From a virus: a stretch of 64,000 nucleotides of DNA. The stretch covers positions 40,536-104,535 of IMG/VR virus record IMGVR_UViG_3300020048_003650, one strand, 5' to 3'. A model generated the notes under the pieces. The model saw only the letters and a list, made by a program, of their open reading frames with translations. It ran no database searches and was not told the DNA's origin. Both the position numbers and the translations under genes were made by a program. Shown in pieces: positions 29,261-52,203 of the stretch (position 1 is its first letter; every line of letters begins with the position of its first letter).

Positions 29261-29343
29261 ACAATATTTAACTTGACAATTAATACCACTTGTGATATAC
29301 TGTAGTTATAGTAGATAAACACTTAAACACACAGGGATACAAA

Positions 29344-29865
29344 ATGACTTCAAAACTTACCTCAACAGACCCACGTATCGTTGATTTATTTAAATCGTAT
29401 CATCGCCGAGTTAAATCTCGTCCACAGTTATTTAATAATAGTAACTCAATGATTACCGTTGGATTATCGGCCGATTTGTTAGATTACGCTAATGCCGCGG
29501 CTGGTCATAGTGGCTTTGCTGCTAGTGCACGCCCAGTTGGTATTCGAGTGACCGTGAGTGATAGTACTAAATCTCTTAAAGATATCTTTAGTTCGTGTGA
29601 ATCACTGGCCGAGTTTATTAACTCAAGTGAGTGCAATGCCGCGGAGTATATTGCTAGAATTAGAGATCGTGATTCTAAAGTATCTAATAAACCAGGCAAG
29701 AACGCAATTACAATCGATATCCGTCCAATCAAAGATGCTTTCTACGATTTAGGGTACAACTTTGATCTAATTCAAAAACTCAAGAATACGTACGGCACTG
29801 ACACCGTTAAACGTGACTGGGACAATCTTCAGGTTACAGAATTTCAACTTCGCTACGCTGTCTAA
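29344..29865 (+). CDS. Hypothetical protein at the start of the methylation island
   Basis: AGGGA RBS; own promoter. Confidence 0.7.
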   Translation: MTSKLTSTDPRIVDLFKSYHRRVKSRPQLFNNSNSMITVGLSADLLDYANAAAGHSGFAASARPVGIRVTVSDSTKSLKDIFSSCESLAEFINSSECNAAEYIARIRDRDSKVSNKPGKNAITIDIRPIKDAFYDLGYNFDLIQKLKNTYGTDTVKRDWDNLQVTEFQLRYAV

Positions 29866-30835
29866 CACAGGTACTGTCGTGATAAATAATTCGGTCGTCA
29901 ACGTACTTGACACACTCAAAAAAGAAGATTACAATATTCTAATAGTTAATGCCCTTAACGGAGCGTTTCCTATTAGAGTTCGTAAAAAATATCCAAAAGC
30001 TAGAATTATCTGCGCCGAGATATTTCCATACTTCAAATCTCATCTACTCAAGTTGGGATTTGAAGTCATTGATTTTTCAATATTGACCGAAGATATGATA
30101 AAACGATTTAATGTGACTTTAGGTAATCCACCGTTTCAGGCAATGAAGTCTGATGGAGAGCGCAGTGATCAGGCTAGTAACCTGTGGAGTAAATTTTGGG
30201 TCAAGTCATTGGATATTACCAATGACAATGGAATTGTTGCTTTGGTTAGTCCAACTAGTTGGATTTCTCCTAGTTCAGAGATACGAGGCAAATGGTCTCG
30301 TAACGGCAAATCTAGATTGTGGGAGGTATTCGATCAATACGGTAGCTACGCTAATGTGACAGATGTAAAAAAACATTTTGATGGTGTGGGTTCTACATTT
30401 GGATATGTGATCGTAGATAAATCTAAAGATACTGGATTGATATTTTCAGACGGCGTGTCAACTAAATTAGGATTTCGCGCTCATGGAGAATATGACCGAG
30501 TTGAATTGGAACTAGATCGAATAGAGAATCTTGATAAACATTTTAAGATTAATCAAGTTAATTCCCCCGGTCTAAGAGTTAGCTTTCCGTTAACCAGAAC
30601 ATTAACCGTTAACAGCGTAGAGATATTAACAGGACAATCGTCGCCGACTACCGGCTCTGATAAAGATGGTTTGTATCTGTACATTCACGTGAATAATCTC
30701 ACTGAAGCGGAATTGGTAAAAAACCGAATTATTGATTGTTTGGATATTTTAAATAAACTCTGCAAGTACAGTGGATTTATTAATATCCAAACAGTAAAAA
30801 TGATTAAATTCTTCGATAGTGTTGTAAAAAGTTGA
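29813..30835 (+). CDS. Gamma-class (Eco57I/TaqI-like) adenine MTase: catalytic + TRD part with degenerate SAM motif
   Basis: FNVTLGNPPF, LWSKF, VSPTSW; motif I eroded to IVNALNGAF; start uncertain. Confidence 0.8.
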   Translation: MTGTIFRLQNFNFATLSNTGTVVINNSVVNVLDTLKKEDYNILIVNALNGAFPIRVRKKYPKARIICAEIFPYFKSHLLKLGFEVIDFSILTEDMIKRFNVTLGNPPFQAMKSDGERSDQASNLWSKFWVKSLDITNDNGIVALVSPTSWISPSSEIRGKWSRNGKSRLWEVFDQYGSYANVTDVKKHFDGVGSTFGYVIVDKSKDTGLIFSDGVSTKLGFRAHGEYDRVELELDRIENLDKHFKINQVNSPGLRVSFPLTRTLTVNSVEILTGQSSPTTGSDKDGLYLYIHVNNLTEAELVKNRIIDCLDILNKLCKYSGFINIQTVKMIKFFDSVVKS

Positions 30836-30891
30836 CAATAAATCCCACTTGTGATATACTGTAGTTATTCTAACACATAGAGAATAGTTAA

Positions 30892-33372
30892 ATGAGTTTA
30901 AAGATTATTGGTGACAGAGCCAAGATACACTGGTTGAGTTCAACTAAATCAGTAACCTTGACCAAAGATCAGGGCGTACTCTATATCACTCAAGATGGTA
31001 AACTTGGTCAGGCAACCGTAGAGAGTTATGCCGGTCTGACTCCGGCCGAGGCATTCGTGCGTCGCTATAATGGCATGAAGTCTGCCATGAATGGTAACTT
31101 TATTGCCGATGATCTCGTGGTGATTGATAAGACGTATGGTGAGAATCATGATTATGATGATGGTGTTCGTCTACTGATTAATAAATTAAACAAGATCAAT
31201 CTGATTGATTTTCGAGCTAACGTTCTATCTCAACAGACCGAAAATTCAAACAGCGAGGCACTAATAGATTACAAGTCATCGTCGCATAGAGACGATGTTA
31301 TCAATTGTATCAAACAATATCTAGGAATTAACACATACTACAATACTCACACACCATTTCAACCACGTTACGGCCAACAGTGGGCCGTCGACGGTATTGT
31401 TAGCGGTCTCGCTCAGTATGATCGTGTGTTGTTTGCTGGCTACACGGGCGTTGGCAAGAGCAAGATTGCCTTAGAGGCAATTCATCAGTACTATCCTGGT
31501 GGCGCTGTGATTCTTATTACCACACCTATTACCGAGACCATTACGTCATTCAAGGACGCCGTCGATGATACAAGATTTGGCAATTCTCCAACCAGAGAGA
31601 CTGTGATATATTCGACCGATAATATGCCGAGTGTCAAGAATATCAAAAACTCTGTTGCCAATGGCAATATTGTTATTGTTATTGCCACAGTACAGGATAT
31701 TCGCTATCAAGACAGTTCTTCAATTACCACACCGAATAAAAAACTTCGTACAAAATACACGTCACTGTGTCAGATAGTTGATCTATGGATTCGTGATGAG
31801 TATCATAAAGAGTACGGCGGAACAGTTACTCAGGAGGTATTCAAACATATCAAGACCAGTAAAAAACTAGACTTGACCGCCACGCCGTATTCGGTCATTG
31901 ATGAATATGATAGTGAACAGGTAATCTCACGTACACTATTGTGGGCAGTGGCAAATCGTGCTAATACCGGCGTGCCAAATTTTGGTATTGACTGTTTAGC
32001 CGGCTTGTTGCCAAAAAACATGAGTAAGTGGGGCGACCTATTCAGCGAGAGCGAGGGCTTTCACAGTCATAAATTGGTCGAACAATGCAGTTCAACAGGC
32101 GAGTTCGTAAACTTCGGAATCATCGAGGATATGATCGAGCGTTCATACTGTATGAATACCGTGCCTCGTAAAAAGAACGTGTTCAGCATCGGTAATGATG
32201 CTGAGTTGAGTCTTGTCGCCCGTGAAGTTGGATTGTGGATTATGCCAGAGGGAGCAAATGGCATTTCGGCATCAGACTACATTGTGTCACTGGCAGACAA
32301 ATTGAATCGTTGTGGCACAATTAATAAACACGTTAAAGTTACAACGGCATATGAGATTGACGGTCTGCGTAAACAGTTAACTGTGGAAGAATATGTTAAT
32401 TCAATCAAAGACCATCGTGTCTTGATTATCCTTACTCACGGTAAGTTCAAAACCGGAACTGATATACCCTGTTTAGGTCACATTGTATTACTAGACAAGA
32501 TTAGTAATATAGCGGAGTTTGAACAAACTGTTGGTAGAATCATGCGTGTCTATCCAACTAAGGACTACACTAAAATGTATGTGTACAGTCCAGGTGTCAC
32601 CGTCAAGGAAGTAGTTACTGAGTTAGCCCATCAGAATACTAAATTGTCCACGGACGAGACCCGTAGTGAATTGGATTTCTTAAGTTGTTTTCCAATTAGC
32701 GAGTATGATGGTCTGTCTATCCAGTCTCTCGATCCAGTTACACTGTTTGAAGAGTTTAAAGAAAAACTTAGACTCAAGAGTGCAATTGCCAACTTTAAAT
32801 TGCCCAGTGAAATTCGTTCAATGATTGAGAATAATTCAGATATCGCGGACGAATTATCTTTGCTGTCTAAGAAAAATGGTAAGCGCGATGGCCTAAGTTC
32901 GGACCTTACAGAAGATAATAACTCTGAGGTTTTTGGCAACCGTAATAAAAAAAATGGCAACACGAAAAAATCAACACCAGTCAACCAAGATCAAAAAACT
33001 ATCAATAATATCATTAACGGACTGGAAGAAATTTGGATAAACGTTCCGCCATTTGCCATTATTACAGATAGTGACGACATCGTTGATGTGTTACAATGTG
33101 AACCGCTAATTGAAATGTTCGGTCATGATCATATCTATTCAGTCGTCGATGTGATGAATAATTATCCAGACTTTAAGAAACGACTGCAACTTAGATTGAA
33201 CGTGTTCTTGACTGCATTCCGTGATCTACCGCCGGAACAGTGTTACGATTCAGTATTTAAAAACTGTGATAAAAAAATGAAACAGGGATTGGTATTCACC
33301 CCGTTTAGTTTAATTGATGAATTGTTGGATAAATTGCCTATGGACAGTTACAACGCTAAATATGGATACTAA
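30892..33372 (+). CDS. SF2 helicase of type ISP/III restriction-enzyme style, ending in MTase motif X
   Basis: PRYGQQWAV, GYTGVGKS, IRDEYH, LTATP, TGTDIP, QTVGRIMR; C-terminal GLVFTPFSLIDELLDKLP. Confidence 0.85.
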   Translation: MSLKIIGDRAKIHWLSSTKSVTLTKDQGVLYITQDGKLGQATVESYAGLTPAEAFVRRYNGMKSAMNGNFIADDLVVIDKTYGENHDYDDGVRLLINKLNKINLIDFRANVLSQQTENSNSEALIDYKSSSHRDDVINCIKQYLGINTYYNTHTPFQPRYGQQWAVDGIVSGLAQYDRVLFAGYTGVGKSKIALEAIHQYYPGGAVILITTPITETITSFKDAVDDTRFGNSPTRETVIYSTDNMPSVKNIKNSVANGNIVIVIATVQDIRYQDSSSITTPNKKLRTKYTSLCQIVDLWIRDEYHKEYGGTVTQEVFKHIKTSKKLDLTATPYSVIDEYDSEQVISRTLLWAVANRANTGVPNFGIDCLAGLLPKNMSKWGDLFSESEGFHSHKLVEQCSSTGEFVNFGIIEDMIERSYCMNTVPRKKNVFSIGNDAELSLVAREVGLWIMPEGANGISASDYIVSLADKLNRCGTINKHVKVTTAYEIDGLRKQLTVEEYVNSIKDHRVLIILTHGKFKTGTDIPCLGHIVLLDKISNIAEFEQTVGRIMRVYPTKDYTKMYVYSPGVTVKEVVTELAHQNTKLSTDETRSELDFLSCFPISEYDGLSIQSLDPVTLFEEFKEKLRLKSAIANFKLPSEIRSMIENNSDIADELSLLSKKNGKRDGLSSDLTEDNNSEVFGNRNKKNGNTKKSTPVNQDQKTINNIINGLEEIWINVPPFAIITDSDDIVDVLQCEPLIEMFGHDHIYSVVDVMNNYPDFKKRLQLRLNVFLTAFRDLPPEQCYDSVFKNCDKKMKQGLVFTPFSLIDELLDKLPMDSYNAKYGY

Positions 33373-33373
33373 G

Positions 33374-34399
33374 ATGATTGACAAGTTAAGCGATAAAGAC
33401 TACAATATCTTAGTGATAAATGCACTTAACGGCACATTTGCAATTAAACTCAGACAGCGGTATCCACGTGCCAGAATTATCTGTGCCGAGATGTTCTCTT
33501 ACTACGGAGAACACCTGACTAAACTGGGTTTTGAAGTTATCGACTACAAAGACTTGGACAAGAGTATGAGATTTGATGTAATAGCCGGAAATCCTCCTTA
33601 TCTTAAAGGAAAATGGATAGAGTTTTTAAAACGTTCTATCGAACTTTCCAATAAACACGTTCTGATGATTTCTCCAGACGGAACGAATAATTTTTCCACT
33701 CGCTCTGATAAATTGATCAGTTTTCTTAAGGAAAATGGAATTCAATCAAAAGTTGAATGCACTGATTCTTTCCCTACTGTTCTTAGCGGCAAGATTGTCA
33801 CTTATTTTTTGGATAAAAGTAAACCTGGAAATTCAGATATCTTTGACCCAGTTGATGATCTTGGACGACTGTTAAAACAAGTTATCCCGAATTCCAGAAA
33901 AAGTTTTCGGGGCGGCTATGAATTTATGGAACCAAAAGTAAAAGGAATTAAGCGTAACAAGAACAAGGACGTTCTGCCAAGTAATGATTCACAATCGTCA
34001 GAATATTCTCAACGAGTAATTGTGGGTGTCACCAGAAAAGGAATCATCGAACGATATTTTGCTGAACAATCTAGCGAGAGTCAGGCTACGGAACTAGGGT
34101 TTGTCATAAATCGCTCATTCGGACAAGGGTCCAATAAAGACGTTTATTTGGTAGATTCACAGAATACACAATTTACCAATAATGTCATTTGGTTCGAGGC
34201 ATATCCTGGAGAGACTGTGGAATCATTCTTATCAGTTTTTGGTAGTAATCTTTACGGCGAATTACTTACTCGTTTACGTAATGGTTCCATGGATATTCGA
34301 GCAACTCATCTTCAGGCATTGCCATGTCCGCCGCTAACTCGTGTGTATTCTGAACAAGAAGTCCACAATTTTGTTAAAAATCAACAAAAATATGGCTAA
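33374..34399 (+). CDS. Gamma-class adenine MTase: catalytic + TRD part with degenerate SAM motif
   Basis: MRFDVIAGNPPY, WIEFLKRS, MISP; N-terminal part paralogous to the 29813 gene. Confidence 0.8.
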   Translation: MIDKLSDKDYNILVINALNGTFAIKLRQRYPRARIICAEMFSYYGEHLTKLGFEVIDYKDLDKSMRFDVIAGNPPYLKGKWIEFLKRSIELSNKHVLMISPDGTNNFSTRSDKLISFLKENGIQSKVECTDSFPTVLSGKIVTYFLDKSKPGNSDIFDPVDDLGRLLKQVIPNSRKSFRGGYEFMEPKVKGIKRNKNKDVLPSNDSQSSEYSQRVIVGVTRKGIIERYFAEQSSESQATELGFVINRSFGQGSNKDVYLVDSQNTQFTNNVIWFEAYPGETVESFLSVFGSNLYGELLTRLRNGSMDIRATHLQALPCPPLTRVYSEQEVHNFVKNQQKYG

Positions 34400-34450
34400 A
34401 GCCATACAAAATCACTTGACACCGATCAACTATTAGAGTACAATAGTCAC

Positions 34451-34981
34451 ATGAACATTGAAACTATTATCAAACATTTACGTGAACGTGAATACATGTC
34501 GGGCGTTGACCGTGACAAAACTCGTGTAAAAGCGACCGGCGAAGTCTACACTCCAACTCCTCTTGTACAAGAGATCCTCCATCAAATACCACAAGATCAA
34601 TTTCAGGATCCCACTAAGACATTCTTAGACCCGACCTGTGGTGACGGTCAGTTCTTGAGTGAAATCATTATCAAGAAGATCGAATCTGGTTCAACATACG
34701 AACAGGCACTCTCAACTACCTATGGCGTTGATTTAATGCCAGATAACTGCCGTGAGTGTATCAGGCGATTGTACGGCGCCCTGGGTGAGCCTGTTATTGA
34801 AACCCTAGAAAATGGAGATATCCCCCTGGAGTGGCAGCGTGATGGCGTCATCGCGGTATTCAGGGTGAACGGCACAATCTGTAACATTGTCTGTGCAGAC
34901 GGACTTAAATATGACTACAGTTTTGGTGAATTGCCTGAGCCAGAGGTGTTTGGCAATTCGCTATTCGAAATAGGAGCATGA
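34451..34981 (+). CDS. Stand-alone SAM-binding half of a gamma-class MTase (motifs X, I, II, III only)
   Basis: TGEVYTP, FLDPTCGDGQFL, YGVDL, NIVCADGL; no NPPY motif. Confidence 0.85.
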   Translation: MNIETIIKHLREREYMSGVDRDKTRVKATGEVYTPTPLVQEILHQIPQDQFQDPTKTFLDPTCGDGQFLSEIIIKKIESGSTYEQALSTTYGVDLMPDNCRECIRRLYGALGEPVIETLENGDIPLEWQRDGVIAVFRVNGTICNIVCADGLKYDYSFGELPEPEVFGNSLFEIGA

Positions 34982-36000
34982 ATTCATTACTAAACTACAT
35001 TGGTCACAAGTCAAAAAATATGAATAATTTTTACGTTCTAAAACGTGATGTGCTATCAATGAACAAGATCAATGAACTAGTTGACCTTGTTTATATCGAT
35101 CCTCCATTTAATTTGAGTCGAAGATTTGAAATGGAAGGTGGTAGCGGATTTGATGATTATTGGAAAAATGATGATGAATACTTAGATTGGTATGCGTCTA
35201 TTATCACTGGATGTTATAATGTCCTGGGTAAGAACGGGACCATCTATTGTCATAATAACTTTATAAATAACGCATTGGTTCTTTCGAGAGTGTCGGAAAA
35301 AATTAGAAAATCATTCGATACCAATATTTCTTGGAAACGTAGTCACCCTCACAATAACATCAAAAATGGTTGGGGTAATATTACAGACAGTATTATTGTT
35401 TTTAAAAAGGGAAAACCATATTTTCAGCCAGAATACACTGAGTTAAATGAGAACTACAAAACTGGTAGTTTTAATAACTGTGATAGTCGCGGAAACTATA
35501 GTTTGAGTCCTATTACAGGAGAGAAATCACGATTGGGTCATATGTACACGTTTAATGGATACACACCCACTTATGGTTGGCGTAAGACTCTCGAGGATGT
35601 TCAAATTCTACACGAACAAAATATGATTCATTATGGAGATAATAAACCATATATGAAAAAATATTTAAACGAAAGTAAGGGTGTGCCAGTTCAAAATTTT
35701 TGGAACGATATACATCCTATCACCAGAAGTGAGAAGAATAAGCGTGAGTACCCAACACAAAAACCAACATTGTTACTGGAGCGTATTATCAGAGCTAGTT
35801 GCCCTGTAAATGGTTTGGTTTTTGACCCGTTCTGTGGTAGCGGAACTACAATGATGGCCACAGTTAATGTTGGAAATAGACGTTGTATCACAAGCGATCT
35901 AAATGATGAAGCTCTACAATTATGTAAAAATTCTCTACAACAACTATTAATATTCCCCGATATTGACGGAGAAAATATTTGGCCTACGTCCCAGTTATGA
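34978..36000 (+). CDS. Beta-class N6/N4 DNA methyltransferase
   Basis: YIDPPF ... YPTQKP..LLERII..FDPFCGSGTT. Confidence 0.93.
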   Translation: MNSLLNYIGHKSKNMNNFYVLKRDVLSMNKINELVDLVYIDPPFNLSRRFEMEGGSGFDDYWKNDDEYLDWYASIITGCYNVLGKNGTIYCHNNFINNALVLSRVSEKIRKSFDTNISWKRSHPHNNIKNGWGNITDSIIVFKKGKPYFQPEYTELNENYKTGSFNNCDSRGNYSLSPITGEKSRLGHMYTFNGYTPTYGWRKTLEDVQILHEQNMIHYGDNKPYMKKYLNESKGVPVQNFWNDIHPITRSEKNKREYPTQKPTLLLERIIRASCPVNGLVFDPFCGSGTTMMATVNVGNRRCITSDLNDEALQLCKNSLQQLLIFPDIDGENIWPTSQL

Positions 36001-36071
36001 TACTGATAAAAATAATTTATTTTTCTTTGAAAACACTTGACAGTATTAACAGACTATAGTATAATATCTGA

Positions 36072-36890
36072 ATGAGATTTGATGTAATAGCCGGAAATCC
36101 TCCATTTAATATTTCTAGTGATAGCGAAAACACTATTGCTGGAACCAGTGGCAATACTACACTTTACAAAAAGTTTATTGACATTAGTTTATCATTATCA
36201 GACACTGTGGCTATGGTGGTTCAACGTAATGGAGTCAGATATGCCGACAAAAAATCAGGCGGTGTGAGTAAATATTGTCTTGACACTACTCAGCACTGGA
36301 ATTTTAACACTGGGTGGTTTATCACTAATAAGTCAGACACATCAGTAGAGAACTGTTCTAAGAATCAGATTATCAAAAAAATATATTTATTAGAACAACA
36401 GTGGAATTACTCGGCCCCACTCAGCGGAAGTTATTCTAAGAATATCGATAAGAAGTTTTGGCTAAAATCCAATGGTCAAGATGTTTATGGAATAGTTGAC
36501 ACTCCAACGAAGGATTTCGACGAATGTCGATACGGATATTTTGAATCACCGTATCGTAGTGGTTCACAACTGATATTCAAGGGATTGGAAAGTATCAACA
36601 GTTATGTGGTGACTGATGAGTTTACCAAGGCAGGCAGTACGGCTGTATTGTTTTTTGACACAATTGAACAGGCTCATTTGGCAAAGAAATTTATTCTTAA
36701 CAATCTTGTGATTAAATATTTAAAATCAATAATTCATGAAAAGACACTGGGTATGGTATTTAGATATCTACGAAAGTTTGATTTGAATCAAATAAAGACT
36801 GGTTATGAATATCCCGTGGAATGGAATCTAAGTGAACAAGACATTGAAAAAATAGAAAACAATCAATCAAAGTTATCCAAAATTACTTGA
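36072..36890 (+). CDS. Stand-alone catalytic + TRD half of a gamma-class MTase
   Basis: Begins MRFDVIAGNPPF, LYKKFI; no SAM-binding motif; promoter 36037-36065. Confidence 0.8.
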   Translation: MRFDVIAGNPPFNISSDSENTIAGTSGNTTLYKKFIDISLSLSDTVAMVVQRNGVRYADKKSGGVSKYCLDTTQHWNFNTGWFITNKSDTSVENCSKNQIIKKIYLLEQQWNYSAPLSGSYSKNIDKKFWLKSNGQDVYGIVDTPTKDFDECRYGYFESPYRSGSQLIFKGLESINSYVVTDEFTKAGSTAVLFFDTIEQAHLAKKFILNNLVIKYLKSIIHEKTLGMVFRYLRKFDLNQIKTGYEYPVEWNLSEQDIEKIENNQSKLSKIT

Positions 36891-37005
36891 CACCGATCAA
36901 CTATCATAGTACAATGTCTGTGCGAACGGACTTAAATATGACTACAGTTTTGGCGAATTGCCAGAATCAGAGATCATTGGAAATGGTCTGTTTGAAATCG
37001 GATAA
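36887..37005 (+). pseudogene. Deletion remnant of a second SAM-half gene (promoter + last 29 codons)
   Basis: TTGACACCGATCAACTAT matches 34416; VCANGLKYDYSFGELPESEIIGNGLFEIG* matches the end of 34451..34981. Confidence 0.85.
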
Positions 37006-37059
37006 TCCTAGTTTTACTTAGATAAATACTCTATCTTTACTGGATTAATCGAGGTCAAA

Positions 37060-38529
37060 ATGAAAATAACAGAAGTTATACAAGAGTCGGAATCAAAATT
37101 AAAATCAAGAGTTAAAAGAGCGATTGATAAACTAGATGATTCTGATGCGGAACAGATTCAGACTCTAAATCACGTAAAAAATGTTATTTATGACAGTGTA
37201 TTGCAAAAAACATTTAATGAAAGTGACATCCAGTCTAGATGTCGTCCTATTGCGTACGAATGGTTCAAGGCTGCGTTAGAACGGATCGGTGTTCCTCTCG
37301 AAGATAAGGTATATCTGATAAAATTGATGGGAGACGAAAGATATTTAATTCCTGAAGAAATATATCAGAAAAATACCAATGGCAACTTGTTAAATCACGT
37401 AAGCGACAAGATAAGAACAAACTCGGCGTTCAAGGAATTGGCTAGCCCGTTGTGGAAATATAAAATAGGTGGCCAGGGCGGAATGGGACCTGGTGAGTTG
37501 TTTATGTCGCTTTTTTCAAAAAACGGCAAGGAAGGAGAAGGCAAAAAAGGAGGAGATGTCACAGTCGGAAGTTGGAAAATAGAACTGAAGCAGGGAGGAG
37601 TCGTTCCGCCCGGTGACACCAAAAATACAGGATTAGTTGATAAGTTAAACAAAAATCTATTGGATATTGCAAAAAAAGAAAACTTTTTAGATAGATTAGA
37701 TTTAAAATCGTCTGCTGGAAAAGATAATCCCAACAATTTAAGTTCTGGATGGATTCCTCAGTTTTTTAAAACATACACTGAACTTCACGATGAGTCATCA
37801 TCTAAAAAAATACTTACTAAATATCTAACGGATTTGTATGGAAGTTCGGCACGTGCATATGCCGATTTGACTTTTGATAACTTAGGTAAACCCGGAGCAG
37901 AAAGAGTATTAGCTCCGATGATTTTAGATATGTATAAGGATTCCCACGAGTGGGATAGTATTTGTTTTGTTGATGAAAACTTTAAATTCATTAACCTGGT
38001 TACCTTTGAAAATATACCAAATGATCTTAAGTTTTCACTGAAACTGAAAAGAGGAGGAGATACTAATGCTGTTGCCGACGGTTACATGGTTGTCGGTTTT
38101 AATAATGACAAAAAACAATCTTCAACTAAGAATAACAAAAAAATAGACAATAAATCAACTATACAAACATCTAAGAAAAATGACGGTGATGTAAAAAACA
38201 AAAACATACCATCTGACAATAAAAAGATTCAACCTCCAGTTCCAGAAAAAACCGCCAAACAACAGGCAAAAGATCAGGTCAGAGATTCTAAAATTAATGA
38301 TATGATCAATCTTATCAAAACTGAACCTTCAAAACCATTATCGGTTGCGATTAAGAAAACTATTGGTATGAATCCTACCATAAATCAACTTGAAATAATA
38401 GGTGATGTTATTGATGACATGGAATCCGGAGTCTCTGTCGATCAAATTATCGCCGACCGGTCCGGACCAGAAAATTTTTATGAATCATCAATGCAGTTAA
38501 TGGGAATAAAACGTCTACTCCAATTTTAA
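37060..38529 (+). CDS. Putative PD-(D/E)xK endonuclease, late, with capsid-targeting-like N-terminus
   Basis: GPGELF...GGDV..WKIELK; MKITEVIQE start; GATAAATA at 37021. Confidence 0.6.
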   Translation: MKITEVIQESESKLKSRVKRAIDKLDDSDAEQIQTLNHVKNVIYDSVLQKTFNESDIQSRCRPIAYEWFKAALERIGVPLEDKVYLIKLMGDERYLIPEEIYQKNTNGNLLNHVSDKIRTNSAFKELASPLWKYKIGGQGGMGPGELFMSLFSKNGKEGEGKKGGDVTVGSWKIELKQGGVVPPGDTKNTGLVDKLNKNLLDIAKKENFLDRLDLKSSAGKDNPNNLSSGWIPQFFKTYTELHDESSSKKILTKYLTDLYGSSARAYADLTFDNLGKPGAERVLAPMILDMYKDSHEWDSICFVDENFKFINLVTFENIPNDLKFSLKLKRGGDTNAVADGYMVVGFNNDKKQSSTKNNKKIDNKSTIQTSKKNDGDVKNKNIPSDNKKIQPPVPEKTAKQQAKDQVRDSKINDMINLIKTEPSKPLSVAIKKTIGMNPTINQLEIIGDVIDDMESGVSVDQIIADRSGPENFYESSMQLMGIKRLLQF

Positions 38530-38593
38530 AATATCTGACTATTTTGGATAATATTATCTTGACTTTCATGTGCCTATAACATATAATAGATAC

Positions 38594-39526
38594 ATGTCAA
38601 AATATAAAAAACCTCTGTTTATGTGGGCCGGCGGCAAAACTAAAATGATCAAGTTTTATGATCAGAGTCGAATAATGCCAACTACAGTCAACCGATACAT
38701 TGAACCATTCTTTGGTGGCGGAGCAATGTACATCGAAGTGATGGAAAGATTTAATCCAAAGATATCAATTATCAACGATATAAATTCCAGTATAGTTAAA
38801 ATTTATCAATCTATCAAAACTGATTATGATAATTTTATTATTCATCTGGATCGATTATGTGTTAAATATCTAGCCATGAACACCGTTGATCGTAAAACGT
38901 TTTATTACGAGGTTAGAAATTTACACGCGTATCATTATCAAAATTGGAGTAGTACTCAAGAATCCGCTACTCTTTACTTTTTGATGAAAACTGGATTCAA
39001 CGGAATATGGCAATGTAATCAAAATACAAATGGTAGATTTGGAACACCTAGTGGCCTATTGAATCAGAAAGACAGAGTCTATGATGTGGACGTAATCAAA
39101 TATTGGAATAATATTCTTCAATCATCCATTATTTTAAATCAAGATTGCAAATCTGTTTTATCACAATATCCAGACGTAGACGATAGTTTTTATTTTTTAG
39201 ACCCTCCATATAGAGGGAGTTTTACTCATTACAGTCAAACTTTCACAGATCAAGACCAAACAGATTTGTTAACCTTCGCCAAATCTGTCTCGTCTAATAG
39301 TAGGATATTATTGTGTAATGATGACGTTGGAGATAATTTTTTTCAGAATCAAATAGGTTCTCTTCAAATAGAGTCATACAATCTAAAACATACAGCGGGC
39401 CGTAGAAAAAAAACTGATGATGGATTTATCGCAAAGTCGGTAACGGAAATAGTCATTCATAACTCATCGAACATAAAATCCACATCGGAATCTTTTGGAA
39501 ACGACCTATTCGAAATCGGCGCATGA
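38594..39526 (+). CDS. dam: Dam-family (alpha-class) adenine methyltransferase
   Basis: FMWAGGK, YIEPFFGGGA, INDIN, FNG, FLDPPY. Confidence 0.92.
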   Translation: MSKYKKPLFMWAGGKTKMIKFYDQSRIMPTTVNRYIEPFFGGGAMYIEVMERFNPKISIINDINSSIVKIYQSIKTDYDNFIIHLDRLCVKYLAMNTVDRKTFYYEVRNLHAYHYQNWSSTQESATLYFLMKTGFNGIWQCNQNTNGRFGTPSGLLNQKDRVYDVDVIKYWNNILQSSIILNQDCKSVLSQYPDVDDSFYFLDPPYRGSFTHYSQTFTDQDQTDLLTFAKSVSSNSRILLCNDDVGDNFFQNQIGSLQIESYNLKHTAGRRKKTDDGFIAKSVTEIVIHNSSNIKSTSESFGNDLFEIGA

Positions 39527-39560
39527 ATTCATTACTGAACTACATTGGTCATAAATCAAA

Positions 39561-40466
39561 ATGAAACATGATTACAGATTAGGCGATTGTTTTGAACATC
39601 TCGCCTCTATACAGGACAACTCGGTCGATCTATGTCTAACCGACCCGCCATACTTTATAGATGGATTGGGCGATGAATGGGACACTGATAAAATTAAAGC
39701 CAGTATTTCGACCAACGCCACGTCTACCATCAAGTCCTTGCCAGTTGGTATGAAGTTTGACCCATCTCAAGGTCCACGTTTTCAAGAATTCATGGAACGA
39801 GTCTCCACGGAAGTATTTAGAGTTCTTAAACCTGGCGGATTTTATGTTGCTTTCAGTCAAGCGAGACTGTATCATCGACTGGGCATTGCCGTTGAAAATT
39901 GCGGATTTGAAATTAGAGACATGTTAGGCTGGACTTATCAGGGACAAGCCAAAGCATTTAGTCAAGATCATATCATTCGTAAGCAAAAAAACTTAACCGA
40001 AGACGAAAAGACCTCACTGATAAAAGAGTTAGATGGCTGGAAAACTCCACAATTAAAACCCTGTATCGAACCGATGACTTTGGCACAAAAACCCATAGAG
40101 GGTAAGTTTATCGATAATTGGCAAAAGTGGGGTGTGGGGTTAATTAACACTAATCAGCGTTGGGACGACAGTTTTCCTGGAAATATTATCGGGTGTAATA
40201 AGCCCACCAAAAAAGAAAAGGGAGATTACAATAATCATGTGAGTGTTAAGCCTCTAGAGTTATGTGAGCATTTAATAAAACTTTTAACCAGAGAAAACGC
40301 CATCGTTCTGGATCCATTTTTAGGTTCAGGTACTACGCTAATAGCCGCTGAAAATACTCAACGCAGATGTATTGGATTTGAATTATCATCTGAGTACTTT
40401 GATATTATACAACGTAGGCTAAGTACGGCGACCCATTATAATAAAATTTTAGGATTTGATAGTTGA
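39561..40466 (+). CDS. Beta-class DNA methyltransferase
   Basis: LTDPPY, RVLKPGG, HVSVKP, LDPFLGSGTT. Confidence 0.93.
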   Translation: MKHDYRLGDCFEHLASIQDNSVDLCLTDPPYFIDGLGDEWDTDKIKASISTNATSTIKSLPVGMKFDPSQGPRFQEFMERVSTEVFRVLKPGGFYVAFSQARLYHRLGIAVENCGFEIRDMLGWTYQGQAKAFSQDHIIRKQKNLTEDEKTSLIKELDGWKTPQLKPCIEPMTLAQKPIEGKFIDNWQKWGVGLINTNQRWDDSFPGNIIGCNKPTKKEKGDYNNHVSVKPLELCEHLIKLLTRENAIVLDPFLGSGTTLIAAENTQRRCIGFELSSEYFDIIQRRLSTATHYNKILGFDS

Positions 40467-40670
40467 ATGAACTCACTTCTCAACTACATTGGTCACAAGT
40501 CAAAAATCGTCAACCAAATCAAGATGTATTTGCCTGAGACTGTTATTGAACTGGCTAAAAAATATCGAAAATGGGCAAGCGCTGGCAACAAAACCGTAGA
40601 GCGTGGCTCTAAAATCAATCGAGAAGTCTTAGTACTATCATATCGGTCGCCAATAATTCAAATCGTTTAA
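40467..40670 (+). pseudogene. Internally deleted Dam-like MTase remnant
   Basis: Dam-like start LNYIGHKSKIVNQIKMYLP joined directly to a Dam-like end REVLVLSY. Confidence 0.7.
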
Positions 40671-40734
40671 TACCAATTACACTTGACAATAAATCACAAC
40701 TATGATACAATGTAGTTATTGTGAGGTAAATTCT

Positions 40735-46114: not shown

Positions 46115-46534
46115 ATGATAATCAATGAAATACTAATAGAAAATCCAGAAATCGGAGATAGTATAGACATAGAGTTCGGAGATGTACTAATCGAATCTAC
46201 AATTGAAGATATCACGGATGATGGCATAGTTGTTTATCTAGATGAAACTGCCATTAAAATGTTAGTTGATAGCCGTCGACAGATGAATGAGGCCGAGTAT
46301 CAGGGACGCAAAGTCTCGTTGGGTAAGCCGTTCATGAACACAGACGGCAAATCAAAACGTAGCGTTTATGTTAAAAATCCCAAGGGCAATGTTGTCAGGG
46401 TTAACTTCGGTCAAAAAGGCGTGAAAATTAAGAAAAATAATCCCGCTAGACGCAAGAGTTTTCGTGCTAGACATAACTGTAGTAATCCTGGACCAAGACA
46501 TAAAGCCCGGTACTGGTCATGTAAATTCTGGTGA
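46115..46534 (+). CDS. Late basic protein, probable head-internal
   Basis: GATAAATA at 46083; acidic N-half then NE-AEYQG, basic NPARRKSFRARHNC..ARYWSC. Confidence 0.7.
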   Translation: MIINEILIENPEIGDSIDIEFGDVLIESTIEDITDDGIVVYLDETAIKMLVDSRRQMNEAEYQGRKVSLGKPFMNTDGKSKRSVYVKNPKGNVVRVNFGQKGVKIKKNNPARRKSFRARHNCSNPGPRHKARYWSCKFW

Positions 46535-46860
46535 TCGATGTGAATATTCTAGAACTACTTCAAACAATTGAGAGTAATTGGCCACTGCTGGCAGTAGTAT
46601 TTGGATTGGGAGGTGCCTGGTGGCAAGGAGCAGTTTGGTTCAAGCGAGTTAACACATCACTAGACTATGCTAACTCTCAACATCGAATTCAACATTCAAT
46701 GTTATGTGATATTAAAAACAAAACAGAAAATTTAGAAAAACGTATTGATAAAATAGAAATAATTACAGTTCAAATTCATGAAGAACTACATGATCAGGAA
46801 ATAAAATTAGCAGTATTAGAAACAGCCCAACAAGCAAAAAGACGACAATCTAAATTGTAG
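46531..46860 (+). CDS. Single-TM coiled-coil protein (holin/XhlA-like architecture)
   Basis: TM helix followed by heptad repeats. Confidence 0.55.
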   Translation: MIDVNILELLQTIESNWPLLAVVFGLGGAWWQGAVWFKRVNTSLDYANSQHRIQHSMLCDIKNKTENLEKRIDKIEIITVQIHEELHDQEIKLAVLETAQQAKRRQSKL

Positions 46861-46891
46861 ATAAATACAGTAATATTAACGGATATTACTA

Positions 46892-48919
46892 ATGAGATTT
46901 TATCAAATTCAAAAACTAATAGAACAAGAACAACAAATCGACGAAGTTCGAATGGGTTCAAGTGACTTTGCAAAGTTTTTACAAACTCCACTAGCAAAAG
47001 AAATGAAGGCTGGATTTGAAGCGGAATTGATATTTCGAGGCGGAGCTGGTGATAGGAGAGACTATTATGATTATGACCCCGAATATGAACCAGACTACGA
47101 TATGAATGAGACTGTATATTCTATCGAAGATATCATAGACTTCTATCGTAACGGAGACTTTGCTGATATCGGTAGGGCCCAGGCTATTAGAATTCGTGAT
47201 GAGATGATGGAAGATTATCTAGAATGGAGATTTGAGCAGCGAATAGAAGATTTTGAATCAAGGGCCCAACCATTAATTAGTGATTGGATATATGAAAATG
47301 AAATTGACGAAGACGATGCACTAGAAGAATATCTTAGAAACGAAATGGAATTAACTGACGAACAAGTAAAAGAGGCATTAGAGGCAGGCAAGCGTTATGC
47401 CAAACGTATTACAAGTTCCAAAATGCAGAAAGAAATACGAGAAGAAGTTCCAGCCTATGATAATTTTCTAACAGCATCGAATGCCATAGATGAACAGGTA
47501 TCTAGTAGAGTAGAACAAGCGATTGAAGAGCGTGATGTCATATGGGATAGAGTCGAAGAAGAGTTTATGGATGATGACGATGGTAATGATTACGGTGAAG
47601 AAGAATGGCTAAGATCACGTGACATTAGAACTGCTAGAGACATTGAAGGAGAATATGACTTAAATTGGCCTCACATGATTGATGTCAACGATAGTTCAAG
47701 TCAAGATGGTGAGTTCAATAAAAGTTATGCAGAAACACTAGCTGATAGCCTAGAACAAGATCTGGGAGTCACAACCACAGTTAGCGGTGGCTATCATAGT
47801 GCAAGACGAGATGAAACTACCTGGATTTTTGAACCAGATAGTAGTTTAGAGGCAGATGACTCTGAAGACATGCCAGTAGAGATAGTTAGTCCTCCTATGA
47901 GTTTGCCAGAAACTAATGAAATTTTACCCAAGTTTTTCAAGTGGGCTGAAGAAAATGGGGCATATGCCAACGAGTCGACCGGTTTTCATATGAGTGTTAG
48001 TTTACCCAATCACAACCCAGAAGATATTGATTTTACTAAATTGGCATTGTTTTTGGGTGATCAATACGTACTGGATAGTTTTGGCAGAGCGGCTAATACC
48101 TATGCTGCCAGTGCACTTGGTAAAATAAAAGGTAAAGCAAAATCAATCGACATCCCCGAAGCGTTTAAACAGATGAAAACTGACTTATCAAAAATGGCCA
48201 GTGATAGTCTTTCAAAATCTAGTGGGTTTGGGAAATACACTAGTATCAACCCTAAAAATGGTTACATAGAGTTTCGCAGTGCCGGCGGCTCAGATTATTT
48301 TAATGATATGAAAAAGATACAAAATACTCTGATAAGATATGCCTATGCTACTAGCATTGCCAGTAATGATAAAATAGAACGTAACGAGTATGCTAAGAAG
48401 TTGTACAAATTATTATCCAGCGTCGAGGACAAAAATAGTGATATTATCAATCTATTCAGTCAGTACTCAGCAGGTGTGATGCAGGCGTCGGCATTAAAGA
48501 GCCACTTGAAACAACTACAATATGACAGAGAAGTGATTCGTCGCAAGGGAAAGTTCAATTACGATGATTCTAGTATGCCACCCCTTGATTGGAATGGCAA
48601 GTATCAGATTTACAATACAAAATCACCTGATAATCTTGTCTATGAATTTAACGTAGATACTGATGACGAGGCTCTTGCCGCGTTGGCATACTGGCGTAAA
48701 AATATCATGAGTCCAAATCTAGATCCATATAACTTCTCGGTCAGACGAAATCGTGACGCTAGTCTTGTCTCATACGAAATTACTTATGAACAACAAGGTC
48801 GAGAGGGTGTCATGCGTGTTAGAGCCGAGTCTGATTCCGCCGCCCGTAGAGATTTTCTAAATCGTGTGCGTACCAGTGGCGGCGAGCCCGCCACGATACT
48901 ACGGGTAGATCGAGTGTAG
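46892..48919 (+). CDS. Putative amidoligase (COOH-NH2 ligase, glutamine synthetase-like fold)
   Basis: GFEAE, DSSL, EIVSPP, STGFHMSVS, KYTSIN, IEFRSAGG; large acidic insert. Confidence 0.8.
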   Translation: MRFYQIQKLIEQEQQIDEVRMGSSDFAKFLQTPLAKEMKAGFEAELIFRGGAGDRRDYYDYDPEYEPDYDMNETVYSIEDIIDFYRNGDFADIGRAQAIRIRDEMMEDYLEWRFEQRIEDFESRAQPLISDWIYENEIDEDDALEEYLRNEMELTDEQVKEALEAGKRYAKRITSSKMQKEIREEVPAYDNFLTASNAIDEQVSSRVEQAIEERDVIWDRVEEEFMDDDDGNDYGEEEWLRSRDIRTARDIEGEYDLNWPHMIDVNDSSSQDGEFNKSYAETLADSLEQDLGVTTTVSGGYHSARRDETTWIFEPDSSLEADDSEDMPVEIVSPPMSLPETNEILPKFFKWAEENGAYANESTGFHMSVSLPNHNPEDIDFTKLALFLGDQYVLDSFGRAANTYAASALGKIKGKAKSIDIPEAFKQMKTDLSKMASDSLSKSSGFGKYTSINPKNGYIEFRSAGGSDYFNDMKKIQNTLIRYAYATSIASNDKIERNEYAKKLYKLLSSVEDKNSDIINLFSQYSAGVMQASALKSHLKQLQYDREVIRRKGKFNYDDSSMPPLDWNGKYQIYNTKSPDNLVYEFNVDTDDEALAALAYWRKNIMSPNLDPYNFSVRRNRDASLVSYEITYEQQGREGVMRVRAESDSAARRDFLNRVRTSGGEPATILRVDRV

Positions 48920-48920
48920 T

Positions 48921-49622
48921 ATGAGAGCAAGAGAAATAACTGAAATTGTCAAGATTCCCCGTGGCGAATTCACTCCTAGTAAGAGCAATATGGAAAAATA
49001 TAATCCCGCTCTTGACAAGATTTCTAAACCCTTGCCTGGTGGGTCAGGACTGAAATATGTAGTGAAACGGGACGGCGGCACATTGTCCATTTATATACTA
49101 GATCCGGGTGCTTTTTCGGGAGGCGGAGACTTAGTTGGTCAAATTACACTGGGCCGTTTCCACCAATTCCCTATTAAAAATGCCTGGCAAGTTGATTCTA
49201 CCGTGGTTGACCCTGATTATAGGAGTCAAGGCATCGGCAAATCCATGTACGGCGTTATTCTAAGCATATTGAAATTGACATTGATTGCCGGCGGGGATCA
49301 AACCGAGGGTGGCCAACGTAGTTGGCTAAGTTTAGCCAATATTCCTGGAGTCGAAGTTCGTGGTTATGTACCAGTTAGTGACAGTTATTTTTCCGACAAT
49401 GATTCTAGCAACTTGCAAAAGAAAAAATTCAACCAGTTGATTGACAACATCATGAGCATGGGCGGCGAATATATAGGTCGTAGCAAGAATGCTCACTATT
49501 TTAGTTTTGATGTGGTTCCTGGTACAGGTGAACTAGAGCCAGCAGTTAAAAAAGAATTGAAACTATATGGTTATAACGATTTAACCAATCCTGGATTGTA
49601 TGCTACTTGGAGCGGTAACTAA
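48921..49622 (+). CDS. GNAT acetyltransferase
   Basis: VVDPDYRSQGIGKSMY acetyl-CoA motif A, QTEGGQRSW. Confidence 0.8.
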   Translation: MRAREITEIVKIPRGEFTPSKSNMEKYNPALDKISKPLPGGSGLKYVVKRDGGTLSIYILDPGAFSGGGDLVGQITLGRFHQFPIKNAWQVDSTVVDPDYRSQGIGKSMYGVILSILKLTLIAGGDQTEGGQRSWLSLANIPGVEVRGYVPVSDSYFSDNDSSNLQKKKFNQLIDNIMSMGGEYIGRSKNAHYFSFDVVPGTGELEPAVKKELKLYGYNDLTNPGLYATWSGN

Positions 49623-50507
49623 ATGAGATACACAGACTTTATCACGGAATCATTAAGTAGAGTTGCATATCACTACACTAATCTTTTTAATGCTGCAAAG
49701 ATAATGCAGTCAGGCGAGTTTCAACTATCCAGCACACTCGGAAGCGTAGAACAACAGTATGCTCCCAAGGGTCATGCTTACTTTTTAAGTACAACACGTA
49801 CTAAAGTAGGTGGCTATCATGATTATATCTCGGCAGGAGCAGTAATGTTCGTGCTTGATGGCAATTGGTTCAATCAACACTATAGATCAGGGCCAGTGGA
49901 TTACTGGGGAAATCGTGACCCGCTACAATCTCATCACAAAGCGCATGAGGCCGAAGACCGAGTATTTTCTAAAGAACCTACGATGCCTATTGACGGTATC
50001 AGTGCTGTCCATGTACTGATTAAGCCCGATAGTGATAATCCAAATTTAGGAGCATGGGCTAGAACAGTGTTTATTAATGCTAAGAAACGTGGTATTACAG
50101 CATATCTCTATGACAACGAAGATGATTGGCGAAAACTGGATATCAGGAAAAGTAAATCACTATCTAAAAATCCAGCACTGCGTGGACAACAACCTATAGT
50201 TACTAGACAGTCGATGTATAATCGAAAAGGTTACTTACATCCCTGGGTACAACTGATCACTGCAACTGATAAATCTCAATTAACCAAAAAAGCAGATGAC
50301 ATACGTTATAGGCTAGGATACCCCTATGATGCTCAAAGCGCACTACAGGGACTGGGAGTCGAAATGTCAAACGCTCGTAAGCCAGGGTCAGGTATTGATC
50401 GTGATAACGCGGTTAAGATTATTGATTACATGCGCAAAAATAAGTTGAACGATCTAGAAGAGTTGATAGTTAATCTAAAGAAAAAATGGGTTCCAGAAAG
50501 GACCTAA
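49623..50507 (+). CDS. Putative ADP-ribosyltransferase-fold protein
   Basis: AYHYT ... FLSTTR ... EAEDR (H / S-T-T / ExE triad). Confidence 0.55.
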   Translation: MRYTDFITESLSRVAYHYTNLFNAAKIMQSGEFQLSSTLGSVEQQYAPKGHAYFLSTTRTKVGGYHDYISAGAVMFVLDGNWFNQHYRSGPVDYWGNRDPLQSHHKAHEAEDRVFSKEPTMPIDGISAVHVLIKPDSDNPNLGAWARTVFINAKKRGITAYLYDNEDDWRKLDIRKSKSLSKNPALRGQQPIVTRQSMYNRKGYLHPWVQLITATDKSQLTKKADDIRYRLGYPYDAQSALQGLGVEMSNARKPGSGIDRDNAVKIIDYMRKNKLNDLEELIVNLKKKWVPERT

Positions 50508-50556
50508 TTTATCCAAATTTACTTGACTATTATTAATATCATGTTAAAATATTAAT

Positions 50557-50730: not shown

Positions 50731-50731
50731 C

Positions 50732-51187: not shown

Positions 51188-51214
51188 TATACTAACGCTT
51201 TCGTCTAAATACCC

Positions 51215-52144: not shown

Positions 52145-52203
52145 CAATAAATCAACTATCTGATATAATAGTAACTAATAACTGTTAAATTGGATATTGT
52201 ATT

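What the first reader, a model, noticed from the sequence alone, without database searches (positions are those of the whole stretch)
37021..38529. Late-expressed, possibly virion-packaged restriction-like nuclease inside an early methylase island
Seen: a PD-(D/E)xK-like core (GPGE..GD..IELK) sits among seven MTase-type genes. Unlike them it follows the late motif GATAAATA and starts MKITEVIQE, resembling the T4 capsid-targeting sequence MKTYQEFIAE. Known: chloroviruses package restriction enzymes that cut host DNA while viral DNA is methylated. Inference: a phage R-M weapon that is injected with pre-methylated DNA and destroys host or competing-phage DNA at entry.
Basis: partly seen in the sequence, partly recalled or inferred. 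Interest (0 to 1): 0.82.

Follow-up and report, generated by a model that had tools for sequence, protein, structure and literature searches.

The report
Phage nuclease paired with Dam-like methylase
This gene encodes a previously unnamed restriction-enzyme-like nuclease that sits next to a Dam-type DNA methylase in nearly every uncultured aquatic phage that carries it, so many phage methylases called orphans may in fact be half of a phage-borne cut-and-protect pair; whether the nuclease travels inside the virus particle is untested.

Summary
ORF 37060-38529 (489 aa) lies among about seven MTase-type genes, carries GPGE…GD…IELK, follows GATAAATA and starts MKITEVIQE.

The motif is not chance. 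In 65 diverse relatives G143, E146, D166 and K177 are invariant and E175 is nearly so. In a confident model (pLDDT 94.9) they sit on the helix-strand-strand positions of a PD-(D/E)xK nuclease. Fold matches are weak (best Z 4.2), but the best ones are restriction enzymes (HhaI, HinP1I, MspI, NhoI). No Pfam, PHROG, NCBIfam or PADLOC model matches.

The strongest evidence is context. In 19 of 20 non-redundant loci a D12 (Dam/DpnM-like) MTase lies within two genes, and the two proteins co-diverge.

The family has two forms. Short relatives (~290 aa) usually sit tightly linked to the MTase, many behind sigma-70-like promoters. The window's subfamily has added N- and C-terminal parts and a T4-type late motif, and its MTase has a separate early-type promoter.

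My reading is a phage-only restriction-modification-like pair (confidence 0.72). Late expression is plausible (~0.6), but an early-type promoter lies 145 nt upstream. Virion packaging is only hinted at (~0.2). Other first-stage notes of this scan describe the same stretch; I found no note on other DNA.

The parts
36887..36915 (+). Early-type sigma-70-like promoter TTGACA-17-TACAAT, 145 nt upstream of the nuclease ATG. It lies on a deletion scar.
   Evidence: 11 of 12 matches. It belongs to a set of nine such promoters, all on the + strand, in 29273-40711.
36910..37005 (+). Remnant of the last ~30 codons of an MTase SAM-half gene (…NGLKYDYSFGELPESEIIGNGLFEIG*). A transcript from the 36887 promoter would read through it.
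   Evidence: Read directly and compared with the C-terminus of ORF 34451-34981. The lead came from note e1-5992445.
36991..37059 (+). Hairpin predicted in read-through RNA. It pairs part of the SD region and has the late motif in its loop; a late transcript would lack the 5' arm.
   Evidence: -20.1 kcal/mol, z -3.56. The 37034-37075 RNA is unstructured (-2 kcal/mol). The hairpin is not conserved in five related loci.
37021..37028 (+). T4-type late-promoter-like motif GATAAATA, 31 nt before the ATG.
   Evidence: The same or a one-mismatch motif lies 19-31 nt upstream in subfamily relatives.
37060..38529 (+). Nuclease-like gene, 489 aa.
37060..37284 (+). N-terminal helical extension (residues 1-75), starting MKITEVIQE. 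The pattern M[KR/L][IL]xE is conserved in the subfamily.
   Evidence: It is absent from the ~290-aa relatives.
37285..38109 (+). Core PD-(D/E)xK-type domain (residues 76-350). The proposed catalytic residues are E146, D166, E175 and K177. A second conserved motif is GGDTNAVADGY.
   Evidence: invariance; model pLDDT 94.9; restriction-enzyme fold neighbours; protein atlas.
38110..38253 (+). Low-complexity basic linker (residues 351-398, pI about 10).
   Evidence: (pLDDT below 50).
38254..38526 (+). C-terminal helical domain (residues 399-489), function unknown.
   Evidence: only generic helical matches.
38559..38587 (+). Early-type promoter TTGACT-17-TATAAT. It ends 6 nt before the MTase ATG, which suggests a leaderless mRNA.
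   Evidence: The same layout is seen in L001 and L049.
38594..39526 (+). Partner D12-class (Dam/DpnM-like) N6-adenine MTase. The ORF caller starts it at GTG 38570; orthologs support ATG 38594.
   Evidence: best solved relative is DpnM at E 1.8e-19, E. coli Dam at 3e-11. Searches show orthologs beside nuclease homologs.

Best explanation
The gene encodes a Mg-dependent PD-(D/E)xK endonuclease of a new, apparently phage-only family. It is the restriction partner of the adjacent D12 (Dam/DpnM-like) adenine methylase. Together they form a phage-borne type II-like restriction-modification pair.

Shown here:
- the conserved catalytic constellation;
- the nuclease-type topology;
- the near-obligate linkage to the MTase, and co-divergence with it.

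Inferred:
- The methylase is made early from its own sigma-70-type promoter and marks phage DNA.
- The nuclease cuts DNA that lacks the mark, meaning host or competing-phage DNA. This would release nucleotides and shut the host down.
- The site may be GATC-like, given the MTase's relatives, but this is not shown.
- In this subfamily the nuclease has moved behind a T4-type late promoter and gained N- and C-terminal parts. It is therefore probably made late. Whether it then acts late in the cell or is carried into the next cell is open.
For: Catalytic residues and fold:
- G143, E146, D166 and K177 are invariant, and E175 is conserved in at least 90% of 65 sequences that share only 20-30% identity.
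- In the core model (pLDDT 94.9, pTM 0.91), E146 opens a helix, D166 immediately precedes a strand, and E175-x-K177 end the next strand. HhaI's SD-X11-EAK lies the same way (PMC7026639).
- Ten of the 50 structural neighbours listed are PD-(D/E)xK nucleases: HhaI Z 4.2 over 132 aa, HinP1I 3.6 to 3.9, NhoI 3.3, MspI 3.2, ThaI, I-Ssp6803I and Hjc.
- The nearest named protein-atlas clusters are R.HinP1I, SmaI and Eco47II restriction enzymes, at scores of 0.82-0.83, which makes them leads only.

Linkage to the MTase:
- A D12 MTase is at +1 in 13, at +2 in 4 and at -1 in 2 of 20 non-redundant loci. The one exception has its D12 gene about 90 kb away on the same record.
- The MTase orthologs are 42-54% identical although the nucleases are only 21-27% identical.
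- The two identity matrices correlate (r = 0.47, Mantel p about 0.0005).
- Gaps of 0-3 nt or overlaps in six short-form loci indicate operons.

Regulation:
- A late motif before the nuclease, with TTGACx-17-TATAAT-6 nt-ATG before the MTase, recurs in the window, L001 and L049.
Against: - No sequence profile links the family to any known nuclease. Pfam, PHROG, NCBIfam, PADLOC and a PDB profile search gave nothing.
- Foldseek finds nothing significant in the PDB.
- All structural Z-scores are 4.2 or lower, a range the tool itself calls common for unrelated folds.
- No activity, specificity or methylation data exist.
- An R-before-M operon behind an early promoter, as in short relatives, is unusual for classical R-M control.
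- Late synthesis of a restriction enzyme has no obvious intracellular use unless the enzyme is packaged.
- GATC is only mildly under-represented on the contig (0.67), which says nothing either way.
Confidence: 0.72

Rival explanations
1. First reader's full model. The late-made nuclease carries a T4-type capsid-targeting leader, is packed into the head, is trimmed after an (I/L)xE site by the prohead protease, and is injected with pre-methylated DNA to destroy host or rival DNA at entry, as in chloroviruses.
For: - The late motif is conserved in the subfamily.
- The N-terminus M[KR/L][IL]xE is conserved in the subfamily and in a divergent long group, and is missing from the short relatives.
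- Nearby late genes at 46115-54554 start with similar leaders. One is a superoxide dismutase whose domain match starts only at residue 18 (lead from note e1-5992457).
- T4-type prohead protease genes are present in two family-bearing phage records.
- Precedents exist: chlorovirus restriction enzymes are packaged while their MTases are not (PMC7019647), and a T4 leader can carry EcoRI into heads (PMC9026906).
Against: - There are no virion data.
- The (I/L)xE pattern in the first 13 residues is not enriched among genes with the late motif (3 of 14 against 15 of 133, p = 0.235).
- In most subfamily members the only such site is at residues 3-5.
- The leader continues into a conserved 70-residue helical domain and may simply be its first helix.
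- The prohead protease and major capsid families are not found on this contig (the contig is 30% complete).
- An early-type promoter lies upstream.
Confidence: 0.2
2. The protein is a nuclease that works with Dam methylation but not as a restriction enzyme. One option is a MutH-like strand-discriminating nickase; another is a junction-resolving or debranching enzyme needed late for DNA packaging.
For: - The tight D-x8-ExK spacing and a partner MTase whose solved relatives are GATC enzymes recall MutH. The MutH comparison rests on my own knowledge and was not tested.
- Hjc resolvases appear among the fold neighbours (Z 2.5-2.8).
- Late expression would suit a packaging-linked resolvase.
Against: - The best neighbours are sequence-specific type II enzymes, not MutH or resolvases.
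- Near-obligate adjacency to one MTase lineage, and co-divergence with it, is the signature of a cognate pair.
- I did not look for MutS or MutL partners.
- The large recognition-type region with the GGDTQAxPDGY motif is not expected in a small resolvase.
Confidence: 0.06
3. The protein is not an active nuclease. It would be a DNA-binding or regulatory partner of the methylase, such as a specificity or targeting factor, that only keeps a nuclease-like fold.
For: - No profile match to any nuclease family.
- Weak structural scores.
Against: Strict conservation of all four residues that would bind the metal or act in catalysis, across sequences only 20-30% identical, is hard to explain without catalysis.
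Confidence: 0.02

Closest known systems
Monomeric type IIP restriction endonucleases HhaI, HinP1I and MspI (PD-(D/E)xK; Pfam R-HINP1I PF11463)
   Same: - Helix then three strands, with the acidic residue at the start of strand 2 and ExK at the end of strand 3 (GD-X8-ELK here; SD-X11-EAK in HhaI, PMC7026639).
- They are the best structural neighbours and the nearest named atlas cluster.
- Each has a gene-adjacent cognate MTase.
   Different: - No detectable sequence homology.
- Z is only 3.2 to 4.2.
- The core here carries a ~90-residue helical insertion and its own GGDTQAxPDGY motif.
- The partner is an adenine D12 MTase, whereas M.HhaI methylates cytosine (PMC7026639).
- The family was found only in phage contigs.
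- The window's form adds N- and C-terminal domains.
Chlorovirus R-M pairs with virion-associated restriction enzymes (for example in PBCV-1)
   Same: - A virus-encoded restriction enzyme sits next to its MTase.
- The viral genome carries many MTases.
- The proposed use is host DNA degradation.
- The enzyme is made late or packaged while the MTase is not (PMC7019647).
   Different: - Those are eukaryotic algal viruses with demonstrated activity and packaging.
- Here the host is bacterial, and nothing has been assayed.
- Packaging is conjecture.
GATC systems with Dam/DpnM-type methylases (DpnII, MboI, Sau3AI; T4 Dam as an orphan)
   Same: The partner MTase's best solved relatives are DpnM (E 1.8e-19), E. 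coli Dam and T4 Dam.
   Different: - No member of the nuclease family matched any Pfam model, so none matched the Pfam families of these enzymes.
- The recognition site is unknown.
- By my own knowledge T4 Dam has no partner nuclease.
T4 internal proteins and Alt with capsid-targeting leaders
   Same: - A short N-terminal leader ends in (I/L)xE.
- A late-type promoter is present.
- The protein has a basic segment.
- T4-related phages pack varied enzymes this way (PMC9026906, PMC3012670).
   Different: - Only 5 of 10 leader residues match, with a gap.
- Neither processing nor packaging is shown.
- The protease gene is not on the contig.

Membership tests
PD-(D/E)xK nuclease superfamily | Acidic residue at the start of core strand 2 and (D/E)xK on strand 3, often with a Glu in the preceding helix | tested here: met
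   E146 opens helix 146-152, D166 precedes strand 167-169, and E175-x-K177 end strand 172-177. E146, D166 and K177 are invariant, and E175 is conserved in at least 90% of 65 sequences.
PD-(D/E)xK nuclease superfamily | Alpha-beta-beta-beta-alpha-beta core fold, superposable on solved members | tested here: inconclusive
   The secondary-structure order fits. The best VIA matches are restriction enzymes, but at Z 4.2 or lower (HhaI: 132 aa, rmsd 4.4). Foldseek gave no match at E 0.001 or better.
PD-(D/E)xK nuclease superfamily | Divalent-metal-dependent phosphodiester cleavage | not testable with these tools
   This needs an enzyme assay.
Type II restriction-modification system | Nuclease gene adjacent to a DNA MTase gene, conserved across genomes | tested here: met
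   A D12 MTase lies within two genes in 19 of 20 non-redundant loci. The two proteins co-diverge (Mantel p about 0.0005).
Type II restriction-modification system | Cleavage at a defined sequence that is blocked by the partner's methylation | not testable with these tools
   This needs in vitro cleavage of unmethylated against MTase-modified DNA.
HinP1I/MspI/HhaI-like restriction enzyme families (Pfam PF11463 and relatives) | Significant match to the family profile | tested here: not met
   None of 65 family members hits any Pfam nuclease family at E 0.01 or better. A PDB profile search found none. The atlas score to an R.HinP1I cluster is only 0.83.
T4-type capsid-targeted (internal) proteins | N-terminal leader of about 10 residues ending in (L/I)xE, the prohead-protease site | tested here: inconclusive
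   MKITEVIQE contains I-T-E (residues 3-5) and I-Q-E (7-9). The I/L-x-E at 3-5 is conserved in the subfamily. The pattern is not enriched among genes with the late motif (p = 0.235).
T4-type capsid-targeted (internal) proteins | T4-type prohead protease (Peptidase_S77) in the same genome | tested here: inconclusive
   It is not on the 104.5-kb, 30%-complete contig. It is present in two of five related records, G002 and G003.
T4-type capsid-targeted (internal) proteins | Presence in virions with a processed N-terminus | not testable with these tools
   This needs virion proteomics of a cultured relative.

The most novel reading that the evidence does not exclude
A widespread, phage-only restriction-enzyme family turns supposedly orphan Dam-like phage methylases into complete R-M weapons. 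In one lineage of large T4-related aquatic phages the enzyme has been re-wired (late promoter, targeting leader, extra domains) so that it is packed in the head and injected with pre-methylated DNA. That would be the bacterial-virus counterpart of chlorovirus virion restriction enzymes.
Probability: 0.18. Interest if true: 0.85.

Novelty: new variant of a known kind. Interest (0 to 1): 0.62.

Why it matters
A survey of 831 phage genomes found complete R-M systems practically absent from virulent phages, and counted phage MTases mostly as solitary genes (PMC4176335).

This family has no model in Pfam, PHROGs, NCBIfam or PADLOC, so such surveys could not have seen it. Yet it accompanies one Dam-like MTase lineage in dozens of uncultured aquatic phage contigs, including records from large T4-related phages. 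If it is active:
- part of the 'orphan' phage methylome is really self-protection against the phage's own nuclease;
- phages would have a methylation-keyed way to degrade host DNA or exclude rivals;
- a new restriction-enzyme fold variant, perhaps a short-site cutter, would be available.

The early-operon and late-extended forms also offer a natural comparison for how a phage changes the way it deploys an enzyme.

Tried and rejected
Searches that found nothing:
- Pfam, PHROGs, NCBIfam and PADLOC scans of the protein or of all 65 relatives gave no family.
- A profile search of PDB sequences gave only chance hits.
- Foldseek against the PDB, with the full model and with the core model, gave nothing at E 0.001 or better.
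- The BFVD library returned only uncharacterized proteins of uncultured phages.
- tblastn and megablast against 50,697 phage records found nothing, either for the window protein or for a short relative.
- A pattern scan of 185,579 prokaryote species genomes with the short-form alignment found no relative. A scan of viral contigs with alignment A3 also found none.
- Alignment A2 was too diverse for locus scans.
- The full-length model search was dominated by the C-terminal helices, so I folded the core domain alone.

Tests of the packaging and late-expression ideas:
- T4 prohead protease and Gp23 families are not on this contig, but it is a fragment.
- Enrichment of the leader pattern among late-motif genes was not significant.
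- The SD-sequestering hairpin is strong in the window but absent in five related loci. I treat it as a local feature, not a family trait.

Sequencing runs:
- No RNA holder was listed.
- Laying contigs of four DNA runs gave only short pieces and no joints, so nothing on cassette presence or absence.

Considered and set aside:
- A methyl-dependent (DpnI-like) nuclease that would attack DNA marked by the phage's own MTase. I judged this implausible for a phage that methylates itself; it was not tested.

Full report
**What is there**

The window is the right-hand 64 kb of a 104.5-kb IMG/VR virus contig that CheckV rates 30% complete.

ORF 37060-38529 (+, 489 aa) has a good SD, GAGG at 37051-37054. 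It lies in a run of MTase-type genes:
- 29813 (weak PHROG match only) and 33314 (Eco57I-like NPPF, weak);
- 34451 (SAM-binding half);
- 34978 and 39561 (N6_N4 class);
- 36072 (catalytic half);
- 38570/38594 (D12 class);
- a remnant at 40467 and a helicase at 30892.

**The family**

No Pfam, PHROG, NCBIfam or PADLOC model and no cultured-phage record matches the protein.

Two database searches did find relatives:
- 12 close relatives at 36-99% identity;
- 64 cluster representatives at E 0.001 or better, all matching residues ~80-347.

In a 65-sequence alignment with 14% mean column identity (A2), G143, E146, D166 and K177 are invariant. E175, N121, Y260, D340 and G341 are conserved in at least 90% of sequences. 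The recurring blocks are GxGE, (G/S)D-x7-9-E(I/V)K, YxxxLY, WDS and RGGDTQAxPDGY.

**Fold**

The full-length AlphaFold model is moderate (pLDDT 75.4). The core alone, folded with the deep alignment, is excellent (pLDDT 94.9, pTM 0.91).

Secondary structure places the conserved residues as follows:
- E146 at the start of a helix;
- D166 just before a strand;
- E175-x-K177 at the end of the next strand, followed by a helix.

This is the canonical PD-(D/E)xK layout. It is described in the same terms for HhaI, whose motif is SD-X11-EAK with D at the start of strand 2 and K at the end of strand 3 (PMC7026639).

Structural search results:
- Foldseek finds nothing significant in the PDB.
- The Foldseek-independent search gives only weak scores. 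Its top hit is HhaI (Z 4.2, 132 residues, rmsd 4.4).
- Ten of the 50 entries it lists are PD-(D/E)xK nucleases: HinP1I, NhoI, MspI, ThaI, I-Ssp6803I, three Hjc entries and the Eco15I N-domain.
- The second look gives the HinP1I-DNA complex at Z 3.9 over 138 residues.
- In the protein atlas, the nearest clusters are unnamed viral proteins (0.96-0.97). The nearest named ones are all restriction enzymes: R.HinP1I, SmaI and Eco47II at 0.82-0.83, which makes them leads only.

Each item is weak taken alone. Together with the invariant catalytic residues they make a nuclease the clear reading.

**Context, the strongest evidence**

I collected loci from viral and metagenome contigs and reduced them to 20 non-redundant contexts. 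A D12-class MTase sits:
- at +1 in 13 of them (the window, L001/L045, L005, L008, L009, L012, L014, L018, L025, L031, L033, L035 and L049-L051);
- at +2 in 4 (L003, L023, L027 with its close relative L054, and L034);
- at -1 in 2 (L040, L044).

The single exception is L021. Its one D12 gene lies about 90 kb away on the same 236-kb record.

Further points on the pairing:
- The MTases are orthologs, 42-54% identical to the window's, even where the nucleases are only 21-27% identical.
- The pairwise identity matrices of the two proteins correlate (r = 0.47, Mantel p about 0.0005). Related loci share ancestry, so this shows co-inheritance rather than independent events.
- The MTase's best solved relatives are DpnM, E. 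coli Dam and T4 Dam. All three are GATC enzymes by my own knowledge, so a GATC-like site is a reasonable guess and no more.
- A pattern scan of one genome per prokaryote species found no member. The family looks phage-only.

**Two forms of the family**

Short relatives (~290 aa) lack the N- and C-terminal parts. Many follow sigma-70-like promoters, and six are separated from the MTase by 0-3 nt or overlap it, which indicates one operon with R before M.

The window's subfamily differs in several linked ways:
- It adds a helical N-terminal region (residues 1-75), a basic low-complexity linker (351-398, pI about 10) and a helical C-terminal domain.
- In every subfamily member where upstream DNA is available, a T4-type late motif or a one-mismatch version lies 19-31 nt before the ATG. 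The window has GATAAATA, L001/L045 have AATAAATA and L049 has CATAAATA. L047 and L050 have GGTAAATA, and L052 has ACTAAATA.
- The MTase then has its own TTGACx-17-TATAAT promoter ending 6 nt before its ATG. This holds in the window, L001 and L049.

On this contig the late motif is positionally specific. Fourteen of 42 copies lie 19-31 nt before starts. The genes behind it include a holin-like, a tail-fibre-like and a tail-spike-like gene.

So 'late nuclease, early methylase' is a conserved design in this lineage.

Two local complications apply to the window:
- An 11-of-12 early-type promoter at 36887-36915 sits on a deletion scar 145 nt upstream, with no predicted terminator before the gene.
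- RNA from that promoter is predicted to fold a hairpin (36991-37059, -20.1 kcal/mol, z -3.56). It pairs part of the SD region and holds the late motif in its loop. A late transcript would be open. By my own knowledge this resembles the control of T4 lysozyme. It is not conserved in five relatives, so I treat it as a hint.

**Packaging**

For:
- The subfamily's N-terminus M[KR/L][IL]xE is conserved, and it also occurs in a divergent long group.
- Neighbouring late genes at 46115-54554 begin with similar leaders. One is a superoxide dismutase whose domain match starts only at residue 18 (lead from note e1-5992457).
- Two family-bearing records encode the T4-type prohead protease.
- Literature precedents exist (PMC9026906, PMC3012670 and PMC7019647).

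Against:
- The genome-wide association of the leader pattern with late motifs is not significant (p = 0.235).
- The protease is not on this fragment.
- No expression or proteome data could be found.

I put packaging at about 0.2.

**Verdict**

This is a new, unannotated family of restriction-enzyme-like nucleases that forms a conserved pair with a Dam-like MTase in uncultured aquatic phages. The window's copy belongs to a late-promoter, extended subfamily.

It is a new variant of a known kind: virus-borne type II-like R-M. It matters because complete R-M systems were reported as nearly absent from virulent phages, and phage MTases are usually read as orphans (PMC4176335).

Other first-stage notes of this scan describe the same stretch. 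I found no note of the family on other DNA.

Noticed in passing
window 46115-54554: A run of late-operon genes has N-termini ending in (I/L/T)xE at residues 8-11: 46115 MIINEILIE, 46892 MRFYQIQKLIE (Amidoligase_2), 48921 MRAREITE (GNAT), 49623 MRYTDFITE and 53997 MREIITLIE. The last is an Fe/Mn superoxide dismutase whose Sod_Fe_N match begins only at residue 18, as if a leader had been added. PBCV-1 virions also contain a superoxide dismutase (PMC7019647).
   Followed up: partly
window 29273-40711: Nine near-consensus (11-12 of 12) sigma-70-type promoters lie here, all on the + strand with 17-nt spacers and mostly just before MTase genes. At 34416, 36037 and 38559 the -10 box ends 6 nt before the ATG, which suggests leaderless mRNAs. 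The same layout precedes the D12 MTase in L001 and L049.
   Followed up: partly
window 34949-34981, 36973-37005, 39494-39526; L001 and L049 MTase ends: A C-terminal tail FGNxLFEIG(A) recurs on two MTase genes and on one remnant. The orthologous D12 MTases of the same subfamily end in similar hydrophobic-acidic tails (…EIFEIN, …ILFDII), whereas short-form partners end differently.
   Followed up: no
window 40467-40670 and 34978: A 67-aa ORF at 40467 starts with the same MNSLLNYIGHKSK as the MTase at 34978. This looks like a truncated duplicate start and points to recombination among MTase cassettes.
   Followed up: no
L044:4045-7202: In a divergent long relative the order is MTase then nuclease (overlapping), followed directly by a ClpP-like protease gene.
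   Followed up: no
L021 (record G001, 236 kb): This is the only locus where the nuclease homolog is not beside the D12 MTase, which lies about 90 kb away. Its neighbours are a MoxR-type AAA ATPase and a DUF2201/VWA metallopeptidase-like protein.
   Followed up: partly
whole contig G000 (104.5 kb): Several 4-bp palindromes are under-represented relative to a second-order expectation: AGCT 0.46, CGCG 0.52, TATA 0.53, GGCC 0.55 and GATC 0.67. This may reflect past exposure to restriction.
   Followed up: no
window 36991-37059: A predicted hairpin in read-through RNA pairs part of the SD region of the nuclease gene and has the late motif in its loop (-20.1 kcal/mol, z -3.56). It is absent from five related loci.
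   Followed up: yes
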